The notes under the pieces: generated by a model
The model's database searches: none
The model's input: only the letters and a program-made list of their open reading frames with translations
Told to the model about the DNA's origin: nothing
Program-made: the position numbers and the translations under genes
Shown here: piece by piece, positions 6,205 through 35,107 of the stretch
Position numbering within the stretch: position 1 is the first letter of the stretch
Layout: every line of letters begins with the position of its first letter
Assembly (NCBI RefSeq): GCF_048403405.1
Contig: NZ_CP183129.1
DNA from: Escherichia coli
Lineage (GTDB): Bacteria; Pseudomonadota; Gammaproteobacteria; Enterobacterales; Enterobacteriaceae
Length of the DNA: 64,000 nt
Direction: 5' to 3' (one strand)

Positions 6205-7057
6205 TCTTGCAACCGTAACACATTTAAGGCCTTCACAACGGCCTGTGGAGCGTCGTGTGGCAGAAGTTGAAGATGGTTATACCCGTCTTGCAAATGCCCT
6301 GTATGAAGAGCTTATCGGCGCAGATTTAACGAAAAATCAGAGCAAGGTTGCCCACGCCATATGCCGTAAAACATACGGCTACGGTAAAAAGATGGATCGC
6401 ATTTCTGATAGTCAGTTAGCTCAAATTACCAGGCTGCCAAGACAGAAGGTAAACAAGGCCAAGAATGAGCTTATCGCGATGAAGGTTATCCTTCGCGAAG
6501 GCCAGCAAATCGGGCCTAACAAGAACATCGAAGAATGGCAAATCGAAGGGTGTCACTACTCTGGTGATAATGTCACTGCATTGGTGACAAAAAGTGTCAC
6601 CAAAACGGTGACAGCGCTGTCACCAAAACAGGGACACACAAAAGAAACTATTACAAAAGAAAAAAGAAATAATAAAAACACTATGTCCGAAAGTGTTCGG
6701 ACGGAGTGTGAAAAATCATCTGACCGTCACGAAGAAACCGACAAGGCATTCGAGGAAATATTCTGGTGTGCAGGCATGCGGAAAGCCGGGAAGAAAAACG
6801 CGGCTTCGGCATTCAGAACACAGTTCAGGGAATGGCGTAAAACTACCAGGGGTACGGCAAGCGAGTTTGCCACGATGCTGGCAGAAGACATCGCATGCAG
6901 GAATGGTAAGCAGTTCGGATTCGACAGGTTGTTACCATCGAGCTACCTGAACGGTCAACGCTGGAACGACGAGAAGCCAGAAACTATTCAACCACAATCC
7001 AAACCATCATCCGCAATCACCGTATCGAAAACTGGCTACGTGTTTTTCGACAGGTGA
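6197..7057 (+). CDS. O: Replication initiator, lambda O-like (286 aa)
   Basis: N-terminal half matches lambda O (DGYxRLxNxLxE...GADLTKxQxKV...KTYGxxKxMDRIxDSQLxxITxLP); contains the ori iterons internally. Confidence 0.8.
6551..6680. repeat. Origin iterons (repeated TGTCAC/GTGACA inverted-repeat units) plus adjacent A/T-rich tract inside the O gene
   Basis: GTGTCACTACTCTGGTGATAATGTCACTGCATTGGTGACAAAAAGTGTCACCAAAACGGTGACAGCGCTGTCACCAAAACAGGGACAC followed by AAAAGAAAAAAGAAATAATAAAAAC. Confidence 0.5.
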
Positions 7058-12970: not shown

Positions 12971-13045
12971 GGGTCAGTCGTATAAAGGTCATTACGGAAG
13001 GCTGTTAACCTTCTTATCGTGGTTCGAGTCCACGCTGTCCCGCCA
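12971..13045 (+). tRNA. tRNA-like gene, anticodon GUU (Asn) by manual fold; one T:T mismatch in the acceptor stem
   Basis: Manual cloverleaf: acceptor GGGTCAG/CTGTCCC, anticodon stem GAAGG/CCTTC with loop CTGTTAA, T-arm CGTGG-TTCGAGT-CCACG, discriminator G, encoded CCA. Confidence 0.45.
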
Positions 13046-13050
13046 AATAT

Positions 13051-13126
13051 GCTGGTTTAGCTCCAATGGTAGAGCAGTCGCCTTGTAAGCGAATGGGTAG
13101 CGGTTCAAGTCCGTTAACCAGCACCA
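13051..13126 (+). tRNA. tRNA-like gene, anticodon UGU (Thr) by manual fold
   Basis: Acceptor GCTGGTT/AACCAGC (perfect), D-arm GCTC-CAATGGTA-GAGC, anticodon loop CTTGTAA, T-loop TTCAAGT, encoded CCA. Confidence 0.55.
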
Positions 13127-26360: not shown

Positions 26361-27776
26361 ATGGCTACGTGGCAACAGGGTATTAATTCTGGTGGTTTTC
26401 TGGCTGGAATTGGTGCGCAAAATGAGAATGCGCCAAAGGCAAGCGACATTAACGCAACGCTTGGTCTGATTCGCGAAAACAATGAACTGGCTCGCTCAGG
26501 TGCAAATAACGTTGGTCTGACCGCGTTACGTGGTCTGGCTGGAGTTGCTGATATTTACAATCAGGAACAGCAACAGAAAGCTATTAGTGCGTTCAATAAG
26601 GTTCACGCTGATGCATGGGTTTCTGGTGATCCATCGGGACTATTTAAGTTTGCCCAGGAAAATCCAGCGTTTGTTGCACAGGCACAACAGGCGTTTTCAG
26701 GTCTTAATGATCAGCAACGCAACGATATGGGCGATTTAGCCATGAGGGCTAACGTCGCTCTTTCTCAGGGACCGGAAGCCTACAGTAAATTCATTACTGA
26801 CAACAAGGACAGGTTAAATCGCGTGGGGGCGAATGCTGACTGGATGATTCAGACAGGTATCCAGAATCCAGAGCAGCTATCACACATGCTGACTACTATG
26901 TCTCTCGGTGCGCTTGGACCAGAAAAGGCGTTTGCTGTTCAGGACAAGATGGCTGGTCGTGAAATTGACCGAGGCAGACTGGCAGAGACAATCCGCAGCA
27001 ATCAGGCTGGAGAAGCACTTCAGGCGAGAGGGCAAAACCTTTCCTATCAGTCAGCAATGACTGGGCACAATATCGCAGCACAACGCTTGGCTCTGGATCA
27101 GCAAGAGTTCGGGTTTAAGATGCAGCAAGCGCAGGAAAAGGCTCAGCAGTTGATTAGCGAAGCACCTAAGCTGTCAGTAAACATGGAAAAAGGCATCGAG
27201 ACGGCTGTAAACAATGCCACAGCATCATCAAACTCAGCCAATTCCATGAGTGCGCTTGCTCAACAGTTCAGAGCAGAAAAACCAACGACAGGTTTGTTCG
27301 GTAACGCACAGAACATGTTCGCAAAACTTACCGGAAGCGATACGACATTGCGTGATTTGCGCATTCGCCAAAATGCTCTTGTTAACAGTCAGGTTCTTAA
27401 ATTCCTACCTCCCGGCCCAGCAACGGATAAAGACGTTGAGATCGTTCGACAGGGTGCACCAACTGACATGGATAACCCTGAGACGGTCGCAAGATGGCTT
27501 GATGCGATGGCAAACCTTGAGCGACGAAACGCGCAGTTTAATGAGTTTAAAGCCGAGTGGATGAGCGCGAATGGCAATCCAGGACAATCGCGTAATGGCG
27601 GTCAGATATTGGGGTTGGATGTTAAAAAAGGTGAATCATTGGGGAGTGCCGTTAAGCGGTATATGTCAATGAATACTGACGCAGCGCCAGCACAAGATTC
27701 GACACCTTCAGGAGAACCACGGAATCAGGTTGGATCATATACCTCAAAATCAGGCATTCAATTTACGGTGGAATGA
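26361..27776 (+). CDS. Ejection protein (P22 gp20-like, 471 aa)
   Basis: Size identical to P22 gp20; gene order. Confidence 0.65.
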
Positions 27777-29614
27777 TGAAAGTAACTGCAAACGGTAAGA
27801 CATTTACCTTTCCTGATGGTACGAGCACCGAAGATATTGGCACCGCCATTGATGAGTATTTTGCTGGTCAGGCTGTTCAGCAACAAACAGTTAATCAGGC
27901 CAATAATGCACCAACACGGGAAGAACCATCATTGATGCAACAAGCTGGCGATTGGCTCACAGGTGGTCAAAGTGCAGGGCAAATTGCAGAACAGGCTGGT
28001 CGTGGTCTGGTAAACATACCATTTGACGTATTGCAGGGTGGCGCAAGTCTGATTAATGCAATCAGTCAGGGGCTTGGTGGGCCAAAAGTATTAGATGATG
28101 TCTATCGTCCAGTCGATCGACCGACAGACCCTTATGCGCAAGCTGGAGAAACAATTGGCGGGTATTTAGTTCCAGGAGTTGGAACGGCAGGAAGCATGGC
28201 TATTGGATCACTGGCAGAGGCCGCAAATCAGAAAGGCGATTTCGCACAAAATGCAGCTAAAAATGCCGGAGTTAACCTTGCCGCTCAGGGTGTTCTTTCC
28301 GCAGCAGCAAAGGGAATAGGGCGTGGAATAACGGCTATAAAAGGTGATATTGCGCCAGAAGTGGCGAAGAAAATTGCCACATCAGAATCGATGGGCGTGA
28401 CACCAATGACATCTGATGTTATCCCGCCGAAAAATGCTTTCACTCGCGGCCTTACTCAGGATGCCGAGGGGGCTTTGCTCGGGACAGGCTCAAAGCGAGC
28501 GGAGCAATATGCAACGCGTAGTAAGTTGGTAAGTAATTATTTTGACCGTTTTGGTGAGTACAACCCTGATGATGTGGTGAAATCTCTGACCACCACGTTA
28601 AGGGGGCGGAAGGATGCCGCTGGCGCTGTTATCAATGACGTCACCAATAAAATGGGTAATGCCGCAGTTGATACCACAAATACCATGAATGCTCTGAATA
28701 CAGCGATCGCAAGACAGGAACGGCTTGGGACTTCAGCCAATCAAAGCCTGCTTACATCCTTGCGTAACCTACGTGAAGAATTAGCAAACCCTGCAACTGA
28801 TTTGGATGTTACGTTTGATCTCTTGCGTCAGCACAGAACAGCATTTAGATCTAATGTTCAGGGAGATGCTATGGTCTTCCCCAACCAGGCAAAAGCAGCT
28901 ACCAATATGGTAGAGAATGCAATGTCAAAAGACCTTCGTAACGCAGTTGCTAAAAACCTCGGTGCATCAGACGCAGCAAAATACCTTAAAGCAAATTCCG
29001 ATTATGCAAACGTTTATAATAAGGTGCTTAATAAAAACATTGCTAACAAGCTCAACAAGGCAAGCAGTGAAGCCAGTCCTGAACTTATAAATACCGTTGT
29101 ATTAAGCAGAAAACCATCTGACGTAAAACGAATCTGGAGCGCATTGGATAATAAAGGGAAAGATGCTATGCGTGCAGCTTATGTCAGCAAAATAGCGGAA
29201 AAGGCCGGTGACTCTCCAGCCAAGTTCATCACTGAAGTTAATAAGCTGAAATCTCAGTCAGGCGGTGAAATTTACAACACTATTTTTTCTGGAAAGCACA
29301 TGAAAGAGCTTGATGCTCTTCATGAAGTTCTACAGCAAACAGCAAGGTCAGACACCGCAAATGTAGTAACTCAGACGGGGCAATCACAAGCCAACAGGAT
29401 AAGGACGATTGGCGCAACTGCGACTCTTGGCGTATCAATGGGGCTTGAGTCTGGCTTTGGTGCAATGATGCGTTTGTATGAGTCTAAAGCAGCAAGAAAC
29501 ATGCTTCTCCGCCTTGCAAACGTCAAGCCTGGAACTCCGGCATATGAGCGAGCGTTAAATCAGGCTGCTAACGCCGTTCGCCCTCTCCTAACTAACGAAG
29601 CTACCAGGCAGTAG
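27773..29614 (+). CDS. Ejection protein (P22 gp16-like, 613 aa)
   Basis: Size (P22 gp16 is 609 aa); gene order. Confidence 0.65.
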
Positions 29615-29633
29615 AAATGAACGCCAAGGAAGG

Positions 29634-30038
29634 CTATTTAATTCTCTTTTCAATGGCTGCAATTATTGCTTTTCCTGATGTTTCAGGAGATTTTGTAGCC
29701 ATATAAGACGAAAAAATCATGTCGGTCATTCTTTCATAACTTACTATTTCCCACTTAGCCAATGCATGGGACAGTTTGTAGTTGTCATCAGTTAGTGCCC
29801 TTATGGAATTTTTTAAGTGTTTATTCTCTTCTGTTAATCGCGCAATTTTTGTATCAATTTCATGTGAGCGATCTAATTCCTTAACCTGTTTCTTGAGGGC
29901 AGCTAACCCTGCATATAGTACGCAACAGGATATCCCAAGAGCGAGTACAACTATTTCTAACACACCAACCTCCTTAGTTTTGAGCAGGATACCAGATGAT
30001 AATGTGTAGTTGGAGTAGCGCGGTTGTAATGCAAGCAT
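29634..30038 (-). CDS. Membrane-anchored coiled-coil protein (134 aa from ATG 30038; alternative GTG start at 29963 with AAGGAGG SD gives 110 aa)
   Basis: One TM helix (LEIVVLALGISCCVLYAGLAAL) followed by heptad-rich coiled coil; divergent from the 30120 gene; AT-rich. Confidence 0.5.
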   Translation of the reverse strand: MLALQPRYSNYTLSSGILLKTKEVGVLEIVVLALGISCCVLYAGLAALKKQVKELDRSHEIDTKIARLTEENKHLKNSIRALTDDNYKLSHALAKWEIVSYERMTDMIFSSYMATKSPETSGKAIIAAIEKRIK

Positions 30039-30117
30039 TTTGTTTTAGCTTTATGCTTGCTTGTATGTGTGTACAGTGTATATAATGCAAGCATACATCA
30101 CAACAAAGGTGCTTGCA
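30030..30117. promoter_or_regulatory. Divergent promoter region with four 8-bp half-sites TGCAAGCA/TGCTTGCA in two inverted pairs around TTGCTT-N18-TATAAT
   Basis: Sites at 30030..30037, 30053..30060, 30085..30093 and 30110..30117; -10 TATAAT at 30081..30086; the last site overlaps the SD/ATG of the 30120 gene. Confidence 0.5.
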
Positions 30118-30119
30118 TT

Positions 30120-31088
30120 ATGACTGAAAAGAAAAGTGGCGAAGGGAAAGCTAAGGGCGGGATCGCTCGCGCAAAGTCGCTGACTAAAGAGCAGCGTTCT
30201 GAAATAGCAAAGAAAGCAGCTGCTGCAAGATGGAAAAGTAAGATTCTCAGGGCAACTCATCGTGGTAACTTTTTAGATGATTTTGGCATTGATGCTGAAT
30301 GTTATGTACTGGATGACGAGTCGAAAACTGTCGTTGTTACGAAAACTGGATTATCTCAGTTGCTAGGGATTGGTGAACATGCCAGGGATTTAGATCAACT
30401 GCTTGGCGCTCAGTATATGAGCAAATACCGAGATCTAGAATTGCAGCGAAAAATGGAAAATCCCTATAAATTTCAACTTACTTCGAAGTCTAAAACCGTT
30501 CATCAAGCGTTAGGTTATGACATTACAGCAATTGTTGATATTGGTAGGGCACTAATAGAAGCCAAAGATAATGACGATCTACCACAATCACGGTTAAAGG
30601 CAGCCGCCGCAGCACAGAGACTTATTAATGCCTCCGCTAAGGCGGGAATTAAGGGGGTTGCGTATGCGCTTGCTGGTTATCGTCCAGAAGTTCAGGCTGT
30701 CATTGACGAGTTCAAAGCGTTTGTTCGTGAAGAGGCTCGTCAATATGAAAAGGAATTTCCAGATGAGCTATACGAGGAGTGGTATCGACTGTACGGCCTG
30801 AATAGGCCAGAGAAAGGACGGCCTATTCGTTTTGGGCAGCTAACCAACATGCAGATATACACCCCGCTAGCAAAGAGTAAAGGTAAAATCCTTGAACAAA
30901 TTAGAGCCAGCCGAGACGAGAACGGAAAACAATCTGATAAGTTGCATCTGTTCCTTTCTGAAATTGGTGTCAAGGCTTTGCGTCAGCATATCGGTAAGCT
31001 TCTTGGTGTCGCAGCGATGAGTGAGACAAGAGAAGAATACGAAAAAGGAATAGAAAAGGTTTTCGGAAGAATGAAACCAGAAATCTAA
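30120..31088 (+). CDS. Unknown moron protein (322 aa) with basic Lys/Ala-rich N-terminus
   Basis: Start at the internal ATG 30120 of the ORF-track entry 30057..31088; N-terminus MTEKKSGEGKAKGGIARAKSLTKEQRSEIAKKAAAARW suggests nucleic-acid binding; followed by a strong terminator. Confidence 0.6.
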   Translation: MTEKKSGEGKAKGGIARAKSLTKEQRSEIAKKAAAARWKSKILRATHRGNFLDDFGIDAECYVLDDESKTVVVTKTGLSQLLGIGEHARDLDQLLGAQYMSKYRDLELQRKMENPYKFQLTSKSKTVHQALGYDITAIVDIGRALIEAKDNDDLPQSRLKAAAAAQRLINASAKAGIKGVAYALAGYRPEVQAVIDEFKAFVREEARQYEKEFPDELYEEWYRLYGLNRPEKGRPIRFGQLTNMQIYTPLAKSKGKILEQIRASRDENGKQSDKLHLFLSEIGVKALRQHIGKLLGVAAMSETREEYEKGIEKVFGRMKPEI

Positions 31089-31092
31089 TTAT

Positions 31093-31118
31093 GAAACCCA
31101 CCGTCAGGTGGGTTTTTT
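31093..31118 (+). terminator. Rho-independent terminator
   Basis: AAACCCACCgtcaGGTGGGTTTTTTGT immediately after the 30120..31088 stop. Confidence 0.55.
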
Positions 31119-31355
31119 GTACAAATCCTTCAGCGTATCAAACACCATCTTCTTAACAAGTTCAGACTGCTCATCAGCGATGCGTTCCGCATCGTCTCGA
31201 TAGCCTGAAATTTTGGATGGCTTTGATACAGCATCAGTCACTATCTGAACTAATTCTGAATTAAGAGAGCGGCCATTGGATTTGGCTCGCTGTTTTAGTT
31301 TTTCCTTTAATTCGTAAGGTAGCCGCAGATTAAATTGCGGGTCATCTCTTCCCAT
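31104..31355 (-). CDS. mnt: Mnt repressor (Arc/MetJ-family ribbon-helix-helix, 83 aa)
   Basis: MGRDDPQFNLRLPYELKEKLKQRAKSNGRSLNSELVQIVTDAVSKPS...DAERIADEQSELVKKMVFDTLKDLYKK closely matches P22 Mnt (from memory). Confidence 0.85.
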   Translation of the reverse strand: MGRDDPQFNLRLPYELKEKLKQRAKSNGRSLNSELVQIVTDAVSKPSKISGYRDDAERIADEQSELVKKMVFDTLKDLYKKPT

Positions 31356-31418
31356 TCTTGATGCCTCACTTTTGTAAGTGGATCGGCATCATATGATCTA
31401 CTGGTTATATCCACAATA

Positions 31419-31433
31419 AGACCACTGTGGTCT
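31419..31433. promoter_or_regulatory. Mnt-operator-like palindrome AGACCACtGTGGTCT
   Basis: Near-perfect 15-bp palindrome between mnt and the tailspike gene; resembles the P22 Omnt core GGTCCACGGTGGACC. Confidence 0.5.
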
Positions 31434-31490
31434 CAATGACGCATTGCCGTAGCCATGCTGCGGCGATTCCTTGTATCTGGAGCAAATTAA

Positions 31491-33569
31491 ATGACAGACA
31501 TTACAGCCAATGTTGTAGTGAGCATGCCTTCGCAACTCTTCACTATGGCGCGTTCTTTTAAAGCCGTAGCCAATGGCAAAATTTATATCGGAAAAATTGA
31601 CACTGACCCGGTAAATCCTGAAAACCAGATTCAGGTTTATGTGGAGAATGAGGATGGTTCTCACGCTCCTGTATCGCAACCAATCATCATTAACGCTGCT
31701 GGTTACCCGGTATATAACGGACAGATTGCCAAGTTCGTAACTGTGCAAGGCCATTCTATGGCTGTTTATGATGCGTATGGTGCGCAGCAGTTTTATTTTC
31801 CTAATGTGCTGAAGTATGACCCTGATCAGTTTCAGAAGAGGTTGGCATCCTTTGATGATGGTGATGGGGATGAATTAGTGTCGGTGAAACAACCATTCCC
31901 CGGAGCAGCAAATCAAACTCAACACCAAAAGAACCAACAAATCATTGATGTTCTTGACTTCGGTGCTCATCCATCGAATGCTGACAATAAAGTAGCTCTG
32001 CAATTTGCGCTAGATGCAATATATAGCATTGGAGGAGGTACACTACAGTTTTCACTACCAGGCATATATACTTTGCTTTCTGAGTTGCAAATAAAATCAA
32101 ATACTCACCTAAAGATGACTGATGGCGTAACCATTAAACGTAATTTTTCTAATGACGTCATGCTGAGAATAAGCCCTAATACTGGCACTAACATTAAAAT
32201 AACAGGCGGAATACTAGATGGAGGAGGACAAGACCACCCTACAGATCCTTTTGACATCATTGCAGCCTCCTCACCAAGAAATCTTTCTATTGTTGGAGTA
32301 ACATTTCTTGATGTAGTCGATTTTCATGCTGTAGATATTGCTGACGGGCAAGGGGTGATTATAAGAGACTGTAAGTTTCTTGGCTTCAAACCACTTTCCA
32401 ACCGAAATTATTCAGAAGCGATCCAGTTAGATCCGGGGATTGAATCTCTTGGCGATTATTACCCAAACATCAATGTTCTTGTTGATAACTGTTATTTTGG
32501 TTCAAATCCACAAAATACCACCACTGGGTTTGGGGCGTGGGGGGCGGGGGTTGGGAACCATGCTAATTCATATGGGAATCAGGACAAAAATATAAGGGTC
32601 ATAAACTGCAGGTTCGATGGAATGCTCTTTGCCGGGGTAAGGGTTTTCAACTGGTATGATTGGGTGGTTAGCGGATGCTCTTTCTATAACAGTACCGCGC
32701 GAGGAGTTCATGTAACCCCATTCCCATCATCATCAAAACCACAGGGGGCAAGGAGGGGGCGCATTGTTGGCAATTATTTTGAAGGCGTTAGATCCCCGAT
32801 TCTTCTGGCTGCACCTACATATCCATATACAGATACATCAGATGCATTTCATGAAGATATCGTAATATCCAACAATTCCATGTTTATTACAGAGTCTCAA
32901 TCATATGCAGTAGACGCAAGATGGGTTTCAGGACTAACTGTCACTGGAAACACAGCAAGAGGCGGAATCGGTTTTTTCAAAGGTGATTTTATTAACAAAT
33001 CAATCATCTCTAATAATGAATACGATTCAGGAACATCAAGTTCTTTATGGATTTCTGAAACTAATGCAGAAGAATTTATAGGGTCTGGTTTTTCGCATGA
33101 TGTTGTAATTTCTAGCAACATCTTTAGAAATATTTCCCTGCATGGGATTCATATTAATGGTAAATATTCAAATGTTACTATTCAATCAAACATTATAGTT
33201 GGGGTTTCTACCGCAGATAATAACCATAATGGCATACGAATTGACTCTGGTGCAGAAAATGTAATTGTTAGTTCAAATCAAATTCGTGATGGCGTTGCAA
33301 ATAATAAACCATTAGTTGGTATATTTGCTACATCAAGCTGTAAGAGCGTGTCATTTATAGGGAATGTTTCATTTGGAACATCAGCCACACAGAATAATCA
33401 AGCTACAGATAAAAGCTCACTTGTGATATTTGGGCAAGAAGGCAACCCAACATCTAGCGGAGTTGGAGCACCAGTTGGTTCTATTTACACTCGTTCTGAT
33501 GGAGGTGGAAATACAGTACTTTATATAAAGGAAAGCAACACAAATGCTACAGGTTGGGTTAATAAGTAA
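31491..33569 (+). CDS. Tailspike protein (692 aa): P22 gp9-like head-binding N-terminus, divergent beta-helix receptor-binding domain
   Basis: First ~110 aa match P22 gp9 ([11 protein letters not shown]...[33 protein letters not shown]...[14 protein letters not shown]...NVLKYDPDQ); remainder is unrelated, AT-rich and Gly/Asn/Ser-rich. Confidence 0.85.
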
Positions 33570-33713: not shown

Positions 33714-34907
33714 TCACTCCACCTTTTCATCAAGCCAGTCCGCCCACCACTGCATCATTTCTCTGCGCTTATCGAGATACTGAGCATGGTTGTAAATTCC
33801 ACGTACAGATCCGCCGTTGGCATGTGCCAGTTGCACTTCAATGGCGTCGGCAGGCCATTCGTGCTCGTTCATAATCGTGCTGAATTCATGCCTGAATCCG
33901 TGACCGCTTTCCAGACCTTCATAGCCGATTTGTTTGATCACAAGTAGCACCGCGTTCTCGCAGATTGGCTTCTTCTTATCGTTGCGCCCGGAAAAAACAA
34001 ACTCTGATACTGGTTTAGTGATTGAGCTTAGTGTAGTGAGAAGTTCAACCACCTGGTCTGACATCGGGACAACATGAATTTTGCGTCCCTTCATCACACT
34101 GGCGTCGATGGTGATAATCCTGTTTTCAAAATCGACGTTCTTCCATAGCATGGAACGAAGCTCTTTTGTTCTTAGGGCTGTGTAGCGTAAAACTTTGGTC
34201 GCAATGAGCGATACGATACTTCCTGAAAATGTTGCAAGTGCTTTGTTGAATGCCGAGATCTGGTCGGCAGGTAAAAACGGGAAGTTCTTCTTGCGGTATC
34301 CCTTCATGGCGTCAGCAAGGTCAGGTGCCGGGTTATATTTAGCCCTACCAGTGACAATAGCGTAACGGAAAACCTCGCCGCATCTTCTGCGGGCTTTGTT
34401 GGCTCGCTCCATTGCACCGCGATCTTCAAATCTGCGGATTACTTCCAGCAGTTGCATCGGCTCAATATCCTGAATTTCAAGGCCGCCGATGATAGGTAAA
34501 ATGTCGTCATCAAACATTTTTGCAAGTTCAGTTGCATAGCCTACTGACCAGACTTGCTTCTTGTGCTCGTACCATTCCTTGTAAATCGCACTAAAGGAAT
34601 TGTTGTTAGACGAAGCCTTTTTCGCTTTTACCGGATCGATGCCAACCGAGATGTCTTTCCTCGCGGTCCATGCCTTATCCCTTGCCTCCTGCAAAGTCAT
34701 AAGCGGATATTTTCCGACGGTCAGGATTTTCTCCTTACCGTCAATCTTGTAGCGAAGCTGCCATACCTTTTTCCCTGATACAGGGACATAAAGGTACAGG
34801 CCATTACCATCGAGTAGGCGGTATGGTTTTTCTTTCGGCTTTGCTGCTTCAATCTGCTTAACGGTGAGCATGGGTAAAAATCCGGTGGGTAAAATTATTT
34901 TATCCAC
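33714..34907 (-). CDS. intS: Tyrosine integrase, P4-family (IntS-like; 397 aa, or 385 aa from MLTVKQ at 34871)
   Basis: N-terminus MLTVKQIEAAKPKEKPYRLLDGNGLYLYV typical of P4/IntS-type integrases; C-terminal HxxR...Y catalytic region; adjacent to the tRNA-Arg 3' end and transcribed away from it. Confidence 0.9.
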   Translation of the reverse strand: MDKIILPTGFLPMLTVKQIEAAKPKEKPYRLLDGNGLYLYVPVSGKKVWQLRYKIDGKEKILTVGKYPLMTLQEARDKAWTARKDISVGIDPVKAKKASSNNNSFSAIYKEWYEHKKQVWSVGYATELAKMFDDDILPIIGGLEIQDIEPMQLLEVIRRFEDRGAMERANKARRRCGEVFRYAIVTGRAKYNPAPDLADAMKGYRKKNFPFLPADQISAFNKALATFSGSIVSLIATKVLRYTALRTKELRSMLWKNVDFENRIITIDASVMKGRKIHVVPMSDQVVELLTTLSSITKPVSEFVFSGRNDKKKPICENAVLLVIKQIGYEGLESGHGFRHEFSTIMNEHEWPADAIEVQLAHANGGSVRGIYNHAQYLDKRREMMQWWADWLDEKVE

Positions 34908-35032
34908 TTTTTACCCGTCATGGAGTGCGGCTGTCAACGATCTGACGCGAACCATTACGAACTGTTAATCTACGGAAGGCTTGATATTCAGGGGATTTTG
35001 CGGACTGGTGCGGATGGGAGCGAACTGATAAA

Positions 35033-35107
35033 TGGTGTCCCCTGCAGGAATCGAACCTGCAATTAGCCCTTAGGAGGAGCTCGTTATATCCATTTAACTA
35101 AGAGGAC
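35033..35107 (-). tRNA. argW: tRNA-Arg (anticodon CCU), argW; prophage attachment site
   Basis: Reverse complement reads GTCCTCTTAGTTAAATGGATATAACGAGCTCCTCCTAAGGGCTAATTGCAGGTTCGATTCCTGCAGGGGACACCA (75 nt, CCT anticodon loop, TTCGATT T-loop, CCA end). Confidence 0.85.

What the first reader, a model, noticed from the sequence alone, without database searches (positions are those of the whole stretch)
30030..30117. Four-copy TGCAAGCA/TGCTTGCA operator-like array bracketing a divergent promoter
Half-sites TGCAAGCA (30030), TGCTTGCA (30054), TGCAAGCA (30085) and TGCTTGCA (30110) form two inverted-repeat pairs that flank a TTGCTT-N18-TATAAT promoter and overlap the SD/start of the 30120 gene and the upstream start of the minus-strand membrane gene. 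This is the signature of a dimeric repressor-controlled switch, and it does not match the Mnt or Arc operators as I recall them, so an unidentified regulator (possibly the 322-aa protein itself) is implied.
Basis: seen in the sequence. Interest (0 to 1): 0.55.

Follow-up and report, generated by a model that had tools for sequence, protein, structure and literature searches.

The report
Conserved four-box operator of P63C gene
The four short repeats are real and form a promoter-overlapping control site that accompanies one uncharacterised prophage/transposon gene family (P63C) almost unchanged across many bacterial phyla, most likely so that the protein can switch off its own gene.

Summary
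The array exists, with small corrections. The boxes are ATGCAAGCAT at 30029-38, ATGCTTGCtT at 30053-62 (core 7/8), ATGCAAGCAT at 30085-94 and gTGCTTGCAT at 30109-18.

They surround TTGCTT-N18-TATAAT upstream of a 322-aa P63C-domain gene in the immI region of a P22-like E. coli prophage.

Chance in this window alone is modest (p about 0.005). Comparison settles it. Among 113 unique loci found through the protein, 102 of 106 whose protein has the N-terminal KGG..ARW motif carry at least 3 boxes. The order is always forward-reverse-forward-reverse, with spacing about 24/32/24 bp. Hosts range from Enterobacterales to Myxococcota and Acidobacteriota. Seven loci without that motif have 0-1 box.

Only the boxes and a TAnnAT -10 hexamer that ends in box 3 are conserved. 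Departures from pairing are not compensated. Rearranged arrays still sit on the -35 and -10 elements. This points to a DNA operator, not an RNA structure.

The most likely mechanism is negative autoregulation by the P63C protein, probably through its KGG..ARW domain. That step is inferred, not shown.

It is not the Mnt operator, which lies at 31418-32. A divergent promoter is not supported. I found no description in the literature searched.

The parts
30029..30038 (.). Box 1, ATGCAAGCAT (forward), about -64..-55 relative to the predicted start of transcription
   Evidence: conserved column block 6-15 of alignment A2
30053..30062 (.). Box 2, ATGCTTGCTT (reverse; core TGCTTGCt is 7/8); contains the -35 hexamer
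   Evidence: the last core base is T in 23 of 58 aligned arrays
30057..30062 (+). -35 hexamer TTGCTT (3/6 to consensus), 18-nt spacer to the -10
   Evidence: Box 2 to box 3 spacing of 31-32 bp in 72 of 81 arrays gives a 17-18 nt spacer. Not listed by the consensus scan because the hexamer is only 3/6
30081..30086 (+). -10 hexamer TATAAT; its last T is the first base of the box 3 core
   Evidence: T/A/A/T kept in 86/86/88/95% of 58 diverse arrays
30085..30094 (.). Box 3, ATGCAAGCAT (forward), spans -9..+2; predicted transcription start near 30093
   Evidence: the start site is inferred from the -10 position and has not been mapped
30106..30111 (+). Shine-Dalgarno region AAGGTG, in the spacer between boxes 3 and 4
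   Evidence: the equivalent GGAG/AAGG is present in the aligned arrays
30109..30118 (.). Box 4, GTGCTTGCAT (reverse), +17..+26, between the SD and the ATG
   Evidence: in many distant loci the box overlaps the start codon (GCTTGCATG)
30120..31088 (+). 322-aa P63C-domain protein gene, the gene the array controls
   Evidence: Pfam PF10546 at residues 199-286, E 1.7e-13; PHROG 2384, unknown function; 1682 homologues; no PADLOC, NCBIfam or PDB match
30144..30233 (+). Codons 9-38: KGG..ARW motif (GKAKGGIARAKSLTKEQRSEIAKKAAAARW), the candidate box-binding domain
   Evidence: predicted as two helices at low confidence
31093..31115 (.). Stem-loop terminator between the convergent P63C gene and mnt; closes the transcription unit
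   Evidence: read from the sequence
29634..29963 (-). Small membrane-protein gene (PHROG 8100). Likely GTG start at 29963 with SD at 29969-75. A neighbour, not a conserved part of the system
   Evidence: annotated as 134 aa from ATG 30038 in ON470589 and in E. coli MB50

Best explanation
Proposal: the four boxes are DNA operator sites of one sigma-70-type promoter that drives the P63C-domain gene.

Geometry. Box 2 covers the -35 hexamer. Box 3 starts at the last base of the -10 hexamer and runs to the predicted start of transcription. Box 4 lies at about +20, between the ribosome-binding site and the ATG. Box 1 lies at about -60. The array is two-fold symmetric: box 1 mirrors box 4, box 2 mirrors box 3, and each pair is an inverted repeat.

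Mechanism. A symmetric oligomer bound to the boxes would exclude RNA polymerase. The binder is most likely the P63C protein itself, through its N-terminal KGG..ARW two-helix motif. That gives tight negative autoregulation of a self-contained unit (promoter, operator, gene, terminator), a unit carried both as a prophage moron and as transposon cargo.

Shown here: the anatomy, its conservation, its exclusive association with the gene family, and the lack of RNA-type covariation.

Inferred: the start of transcription, the identity of the binder, and that the effect is repression.
For: 1. Conservation. There are 81 unique arrays with the forward-reverse-forward-reverse order. Start-to-start spacings have modes of 24, 32 and 24 bp. 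In a 58-sequence alignment from distant hosts only the boxes are invariant, the -10 pattern TAnnAT is kept at 86-95%, and the spacers are free.

2. Phyletic range. The hosts include Enterobacterales, Pseudomonas, Burkholderiales, Gallionellaceae, Hyphomicrobiales, Myxococcota, Syntrophaceae and Bryobacterales, with protein identity of 43-76%.

3. Specificity. Of 120 exact matches to ATGCAAGCA-N14-18-TGCTTGCA in viral contigs, 84 lie within 300 nt of a P63C homologue. At least four more are truncated copies.

4. Link to the N-terminal motif. Of 106 unique loci with the motif, 102 have at least 3 boxes. Seven loci without it have 0-1. L246 is only 28% identical overall (hhalign probability 99.5%), yet it keeps the motif and a perfect array. 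The L054 proteins are 54% identical overall but share residues 1-39 and a near-identical upstream region (differing at three bases).

5. DNA rather than RNA. The box cores never vary. Departures are uncompensated: TGCTTACA in 9 arrays and box 2 ending in T in 23. The RNAalifold covariation term is 0.06. The predicted mRNA 5' end is unstructured, z +0.58. Rearranged arrays (L087, L092, L097, L062, L088) lose box 4 but keep boxes on the -35, the spacer and the -10.

6. No other target. There is no further site cluster in the 64-kb window.
Against: - No binding, reporter or transcription-start data exist.
- The -35 hexamer is weak (3/6), and the consensus scan does not list the promoter.
- The KGG..ARW motif has no known function, no Pfam or PDB match, and is modelled with low confidence.
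- The motif also occurs in more than 13,000 clusters of small proteins. Where checked, the genes for these have no boxes upstream.
- The loci without the motif are also the most divergent ones, so the correlation is confounded by phylogeny.
- Residues 43-135, a confident beta/alpha domain, could be the DNA binder instead.
- The strict forward-reverse pairing also gives stable hairpins (-11.9 and -15.1 kcal/mol), which a plain dimer-per-box model does not require.
- One flanking pair shows a weak association (Fisher p = 0.035).
Confidence: 0.6

Rival explanations
1. The boxes are operators, but the binder is another trans-acting factor: a host regulator, Mnt, or a separate small KGG..ARW protein like the one encoded beside P63C in the transposon form.
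For: In about 20 non-enteric loci a convergent protein of roughly 79 aa carries the same motif. Box-like variants (CTCAAGCAT/ATGCTTGAG) also sit at the transposase start. CytR octamers (GTTGCATT, from my own knowledge) resemble CTTGCATT in boxes 1, 3 and 4.
Against: The window and all the enteric loci lack the small protein. Mnt has its own distinct palindrome at 31418-32. No single host factor is shared by the phyla that carry the identical array. The only gene that is constantly linked to the array is the P63C gene.
Confidence: 0.15
2. It is an RNA leader. Boxes 1:2 and 3:4 (or the alternative 2:3) form hairpins that control translation or termination, as in an attenuator.
For: The forward-reverse-forward-reverse order allows 1:2 with 3:4, or 2:3, pairings. 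Hairpin 3:4 has the SD in its loop and the ATG at its foot, and folds at -15.1 kcal/mol, z -5.5. 91% of cells are paired.
Against: The conserved -10 places the start of transcription at the end of box 3, so boxes 1-3 would not be transcribed. There are no compensatory changes in the cores, mismatches are uncompensated, and the covariation term is about 0. All four arms share one sequence across phyla, which a stem does not require. Some arrays lack box 4 or have forward-forward pairs. There is no Rfam match.
Confidence: 0.07
3. The same protein binds the boxes but activates transcription, or acts as a bistable switch, instead of simply repressing.
For: The -35 is poor and the spacer is 18 nt. 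Boxes at -60 and -36 are positions that class I and class II activators use.
Against: Box 3 covers -7 to +1 and box 4 lies at +20. These are classical repression positions. The -10 is a perfect TATAAT.
Confidence: 0.1
4. The boxes are inverted repeats of an invertible promoter segment or other recombination site, or a chance cluster.
For: Boxes 1 and 4 form an 11/12 inverted repeat that flanks the promoter. In this window alone the cluster has p of about 0.005.
Against: All 58 aligned arrays, and all 81 unique ones, have the -10 on the P63C side; none is inverted. No recombinase is conserved nearby. The module boundaries lie at 29955 and 31118, not at the boxes. Cross-phylum conservation excludes chance.
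Confidence: 0.02

Closest known systems
Phage P22 immI operators (Mnt and Arc ribbon-helix-helix repressors at Pant/Pmnt)
   Same: The same genomic neighbourhood (between gene 16 and the tailspike gene, next to mnt). Short symmetric operators that overlap a promoter.
   Different: A different sequence. The Mnt-type palindrome is separate, at 31418-32. The array consists of four 10-bp boxes spread over 90 bp. The linked protein is not a ribbon-helix-helix protein. The array also occurs far outside P22-like phages.
Lambda-type OR/OL arrays with autoregulated CI
   Same: Several pseudo-palindromic sites that overlap the -35 and -10 of the regulator's own promoter. Cooperative or looped occupancy is likely.
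   Different: The boxes are 8-10 bp, not 17 bp. The spacing of 24/32/24 bp has overall dyad symmetry. One site lies between the SD and the ATG. The gene product is a 322-aa protein of unknown function, not a dedicated repressor.
MetJ met-box arrays
   Same: Repeated 8-bp near-palindromic boxes in 2-5 copies at a promoter.
   Different: Met boxes are contiguous tandem repeats bound by ribbon-helix-helix dimers. Here the boxes are separated by 14-24 bp and alternate in orientation.
IS1 InsA repression of its own promoter
   Same: In the transposon form, an IS1-related element carries a short protein that shares the putative DNA-binding motif with a longer protein. Repeats lie at the transposase promoter.
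   Different: The boxes are internal, not the terminal inverted repeats. The motif is unrelated to the InsA zinc-finger and helix-turn-helix region. The enteric prophage form has no transposase.
Transcription attenuators (four-segment leaders)
   Same: Four segments that can pair as 1:2 with 3:4, or as 2:3.
   Different: No covariation, no leader peptide and no U-tract. Most of the segments lie upstream of the predicted start of transcription.

Membership tests
Mnt/Arc operator of P22 immI | Sequence matches the Mnt- or Arc-type symmetric operator and lies at Pant/Pmnt | tested here: not met
   The boxes read ATGCWWGCAT. The Mnt-type palindrome AGACCACTGTGGTCT lies at 31418-32, upstream of mnt. 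arc and ant are absent from the window.
Promoter-overlapping operator array (negative autoregulation) | A sigma-70 promoter whose -35 and -10 elements are overlapped by repeated symmetric sites | tested here: met
   TTGCTT-N18-TATAAT, with box 2 on the -35 and box 3 abutting the -10. The -10 pattern is kept at 86-95% and the spacer is 17-18 nt in 72 of 81 arrays. The consensus scan did not list the promoter because the -35 is 3/6.
Promoter-overlapping operator array (negative autoregulation) | The sites co-occur with the gene that encodes the regulator | tested here: met
   102 of 106 loci with the motif have at least 3 boxes; 7 without it have 0-1. 84 of 120 exact pattern hits lie next to a P63C homologue.
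Promoter-overlapping operator array (negative autoregulation) | The protein binds the sites and lowers transcription | not testable with these tools
   Needs gel-shift or footprinting assays and reporter assays.
Structured RNA leader / attenuator | Base pairs are maintained by compensatory changes | tested here: not met
   7 of 20 pairs never vary. Box 4 G-to-A changes in 9 arrays and box 2 A-to-T changes in 23 arrays are uncompensated. The covariation term is 0.06.
Structured RNA leader / attenuator | All pairing segments lie inside the transcript | tested here: inconclusive
   The predicted start at about 30093 excludes boxes 1-3, but the start has not been mapped.
Invertible promoter switch | Both orientations are found, and a site-specific recombinase is linked | tested here: not met
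   None of the 81 unique arrays is inverted. No conserved recombinase lies nearby.
P63C domain family (Pfam PF10546) | A significant match to the P63C profile | tested here: met
   E 1.7e-13 over residues 199-286. RefSeq names the gene 'P63C domain-containing protein'.
Known anti-phage defence systems (PADLOC) | A match to a defence-system protein model | tested here: not met
   No PADLOC family at E up to 0.1.

The most novel reading that the evidence does not exclude
The KGG..ARW motif may be a previously unrecognised, very widespread sequence-specific DNA-binding module; its profile hits more than 13,000 protein clusters. With the ATGCAAGCAT boxes it would form a portable, self-repressing expression cassette. 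That cassette works unchanged in at least eight bacterial phyla and rides both on prophage immunity regions and on IS1-like transposons. Such an arrangement would keep a possibly harmful P63C effector, for example a defence or exclusion protein, tightly controlled.
Probability: 0.35. Interest if true: 0.7.

Novelty: new member of a known kind. Interest (0 to 1): 0.5.

Why it matters
P63C-domain proteins are common in prophages. About 6% of complete E. coli genomes match this module, and about 1% carry it nearly whole. No function is known for them.

The array offers a direct experimental handle: a defined promoter and operator, a candidate autoregulator and a candidate DNA-binding motif. A 10-bp operator that stays invariant from E. 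coli to Myxococcota and Acidobacteriota is unusual. It implies that the regulator is encoded within the cassette.

The array may also be useful as a host-independent autoregulated expression unit. The link to IS1-like transposons that carry the same cassette suggests how the family spreads.

Tried and rejected
- Rfam scan of 29000-32000: only sub-threshold noise.
- Literature searches for P63C, TGCAAGCA with 'operator', and P63C with 'prophage': nothing on function or on this motif.
- Mnt as the binder: rejected, because Mnt has its own operator elsewhere.
- Sigma-54 promoter, and CRP, LexA, Fur or CytR sites, judged from memory: only CytR octamers resemble the boxes, and CytR cannot explain conservation across phyla.
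- Invertible promoter: rejected, because no inverted copy was found.
- Boxes upstream of the small KGG..ARW genes in the transposons: none. That region holds the transposon's terminal repeat instead.
- L234, a box pair in front of a small gene next to an integrase: an isolated case, not pursued.
- A second viral scan with the family alignment returned only enteric relatives at 58% identity or more, so it added no diversity.
- I could not locate a convincing minus-strand promoter for the membrane-protein gene.

Full report
**Setting.** The window carries a P22-like (Lederbergvirus) prophage of E. coli. Around the finding lie:
- the DNA-transfer genes at 26361-27776 and 27773-29614;
- a small minus-strand membrane-protein gene;
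- a 322-aa plus-strand gene at 30120-31088;
- mnt at 31104-31355 on the minus strand;
- the tailspike gene at 31491-33569.

The integrase (33714-34907) and tRNA-Arg (35033-35107) mark the end of the prophage. E. coli MB50 matches 29900-31150 at 99.9% identity. 326 of 5426 complete E. coli genomes have a match to this stretch, and 45 carry it nearly whole.

**The observation.** The sequence shows TGCAAGCA at 30030-37, TGCTTGCt at 30054-61, TGCAAGCA at 30086-93 and TGCTTGCA at 30110-17. TTGCTT (30057-62), 18 nt and TATAAT (30081-86) lie between boxes 2 and 3, and the ATG is at 30120.

With their flanks the boxes are 10-bp pseudo-palindromes of the form ATGC-WW-GCAT. TAATGCAAGCAT is repeated 56 bp apart. 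ATAATGCAAGCA and TGCTTGCATTAT form a perfect 12-bp inverted repeat. The whole array is a 34-nt imperfect palindrome.

TGCWWGCA is not over-represented in the window: 6 copies against 8.8 expected. But three of the copies fall within 88 bp. A cluster of that kind arose in 9 of 2000 shuffles. No other cluster exists in the 64 kb.

**The gene.** The 322-aa protein has a P63C domain (Pfam PF10546, residues 199-286, E 1.7e-13). It belongs to PHROG 2384, of unknown function. It has 1682 homologues, all named only 'P63C domain-containing protein'.

There is no match in PADLOC, NCBIfam or the PDB. An AlphaFold model (pLDDT 77) has no significant structural neighbour.

The module 29955-31118 is shared at 98% with Escherichia phage vB_EcoP-611R6. 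Salmonella phages ST160 and SE1 have a different gene at that place. A stem-loop terminator at 31093-31115 closes the unit. The unit is therefore a moron-like cassette: promoter, gene and terminator.

**Comparative evidence.** Homologous loci were found through the protein, not through the motif, in viral contigs (58 loci, 52-100% identity) and in GTDB species genomes (64 loci). The hosts include:
- Enterobacterales, Pseudomonas, Burkholderiales and Gallionellaceae;
- Rhodanobacter and Hyphomicrobiales;
- Myxococcota, Syntrophaceae and Bryobacterales.

Nearly all of these loci carry the same array directly upstream of the start codon. The genomic contexts are unrelated: after terminators, after tRNA genes, beside cI-like repressors, and in other settings.

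There are 81 unique arrays with the order forward-reverse-forward-reverse. In six of them one box is the ambiguous TGCATGCA. Start-to-start spacings have these modes:
- box 1 to box 2: 24 bp (range 20-26);
- box 2 to box 3: 32 bp (mostly 31-33), except for three loci with 22-23, one helical turn less;
- box 3 to box 4: 24 bp (range 22-25).

In a 58-sequence alignment, the columns conserved at 90% or more almost all fall in GCAAGCA and TGCTTGC. The hexamer in front of box 3 keeps T, A, A and T at 86, 86, 88 and 95%. The spacers are free. Box 4 lies between the SD and the ATG, and often overlaps the ATG as GCTTGCATG.

Of these, 84 lie within 300 nt of a P63C homologue, and at least four more are truncated copies.

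**DNA or RNA.** The inverted pairs would fold well as RNA, at -11.9 and -15.1 kcal/mol. Several results argue against an RNA element:
- The box cores never vary, which says nothing for pairing.
- The departures that do occur are uncompensated: box 4 reads TGCTTACA in 9 arrays, and box 2 ends in T in 23.
- RNAalifold gives a covariation term of 0.06 and does not predict the 3:4 helix.
- One flanking pair shows CG 18, UA 18, UG 12 and CA 8 (Fisher p = 0.035). This follows the split between enteric and non-enteric clades.
- The conserved -10 puts the start of transcription at about 30093, the last base of box 3. Boxes 1-3 would then not be transcribed, and the predicted 5' end is unstructured, z +0.58.
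- Rearranged arrays keep boxes on the -35, the spacer and the -10 while losing the box at the ATG. Examples are L087, L092 and L097 (forward-reverse-forward-forward) and L062 and L088 (reverse-reverse-forward).
- All four arms use the same sequence across phyla. That is expected for a protein-recognition site, not for a stem.

**Who binds.** The only gene constantly linked to the array is the P63C gene. Its N-terminus carries a highly conserved motif, GKAKGGxARAxxLTxEQRxEIAKKAAAARW, here called KGG..ARW. It is predicted as two helices at low confidence.

- Among 113 unique loci, 106 have the motif. Of these, 102 have at least 3 boxes. The exceptions are one truncated gene (L053), one Chthoniobacter locus with diverged repeats (L103), and L105 and L109, which carry different repeated palindromes.
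- Seven loci lack the motif and have 0-1 box, which is background.
- L246 is only 28% identical to the family overall (hhalign 99.5%). It keeps the motif and a perfect array, downstream of a cI-like repressor.
- The L054 group is 54% identical overall but shares residues 1-39 and a near-identical upstream region (differing at three bases).

This is correlation, and it is confounded by phylogeny. The confident beta/alpha domain at residues 43-135 remains an alternative binder.

Mnt is excluded as the binder. Its own palindrome, AGACCACTGTGGTCT, lies at 31418-32.

**Mechanism proposed.** The model is negative autoregulation. An oligomer of the P63C protein occupies boxes 2 and 3, on the -35 and from the -10 to +1, helped by boxes 1 (-60) and 4 (+20), and blocks RNA polymerase. 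The anatomy and the conservation are shown here. The start site, the binder and the sign of regulation are inferred.

**The 'divergent promoter'.** Most arrays have no divergent gene upstream. The ATG at 30038 lies inside box 1, because every box contains ATG on both strands, and it has no SD. GTG 29963 follows AAGGAGG by 5 nt, and PHROG 8100 aligns from residue 26. Both ON470589 and RefSeq annotate the long form. I found no convincing minus-strand promoter, and the consensus scan lists none in the intergenic region.

**Wider context.** In about 23 non-enteric loci the cassette lies inside a 2.3-kb IS1-like element. The element contains:
- a divergent 291-aa DDE transposase (NF033558 IS1, 62 bits, below the cut-off);
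- the array and the P63C gene;
- a convergent 79-aa protein whose C-terminus carries the same KGG..ARW motif.

The element has terminal inverted repeats (GGTAGTGTCTCAGTTTGAA). In L073 it is flanked by an 8-bp duplication (CCACTTTG) and sits between rpsT and murJ. A profile of the motif hits 13,554 cluster representatives. Most are small basic proteins, often with tandem copies of the motif, and some are annotated 'histone H1'.

**Novelty.** An autoregulated, promoter-overlapping operator array is a known kind of system. This operator, its association with the P63C family and its invariance across phyla were not found in the literature searched. I file it as a new member of a known kind. There is a plausible, unproven extension: that KGG..ARW is a new DNA-binding module.

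Noticed in passing
L073:1472-3776 (also L061, L072, L074, L077, L085, L089, L094, L115, L117, L125 and others): A 2.3-kb IS1-like transposon carries the P63C cassette and a 79-aa KGG..ARW protein as cargo. Its terminal inverted repeats read GGTAGTGTCTCAGTTTGAA. In L073 it is flanked by the 8-bp duplication CCACTTTG and sits between rpsT and murJ.
   Followed up: partly
L073:3469-3708 (-); profile A3: The KGG..ARW motif is a widespread unit. Its profile hits 13,554 cluster representatives, mostly proteins of 60-120 aa and often with 2-4 tandem copies. It has no Pfam or PDB match, and some members are annotated 'histone H1'.
   Followed up: partly
L073:2363-2405 and equivalents: A further inverted pair with a variant box (CTCAAGCAT / ATGCTTGAG) lies at the transposase start. 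CCGCTCAAGCA recurs in the first codons of the small-protein gene. The same regulator may control both.
   Followed up: no
window 31418-31432: The Mnt-operator-like palindrome AGACCACTGTGGTCT lies between mnt and the tailspike gene, although arc and ant are absent from this prophage.
   Followed up: no
window 31093-31115: A stem-loop terminator lies between the convergent P63C gene and mnt. It accounts for the weak Rfam sroH hits on both strands.
   Followed up: no
L246:1-1444; L062:2501-4305: In lambdoid prophages the cassette sits next to the cI-like repressor gene, a rex-like position. This is consistent with expression in lysogens.
   Followed up: partly
L105 and L109 upstream regions: Two distant homologues, from Bradyrhizobium and an Acidobacteria MAG, have repeated palindromes of a different sequence in the same place: ATGCTTAGCAT, and an ACTTGCCCGAGCAAGT type. 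Their KGG..ARW motifs have also diverged.
   Followed up: no
window 38127-38166; 6582-6619; 34872-34909; 38954-39015: Other local repeat clusters: TCAATA 6.7 times in tandem, and TGGTGACA, GGGTAAAA and AGTTAAAG three times each.
   Followed up: no
window 12971-13126: tRNA-Asn and tRNA-Thr genes lie inside the prophage.
   Followed up: no
window 29634-30038: The minus-strand membrane-protein gene is annotated in public records as 134 aa, starting from an ATG that lies inside box 1. The SD and the family profile favour a 109-aa product starting at GTG 29963.
   Followed up: partly
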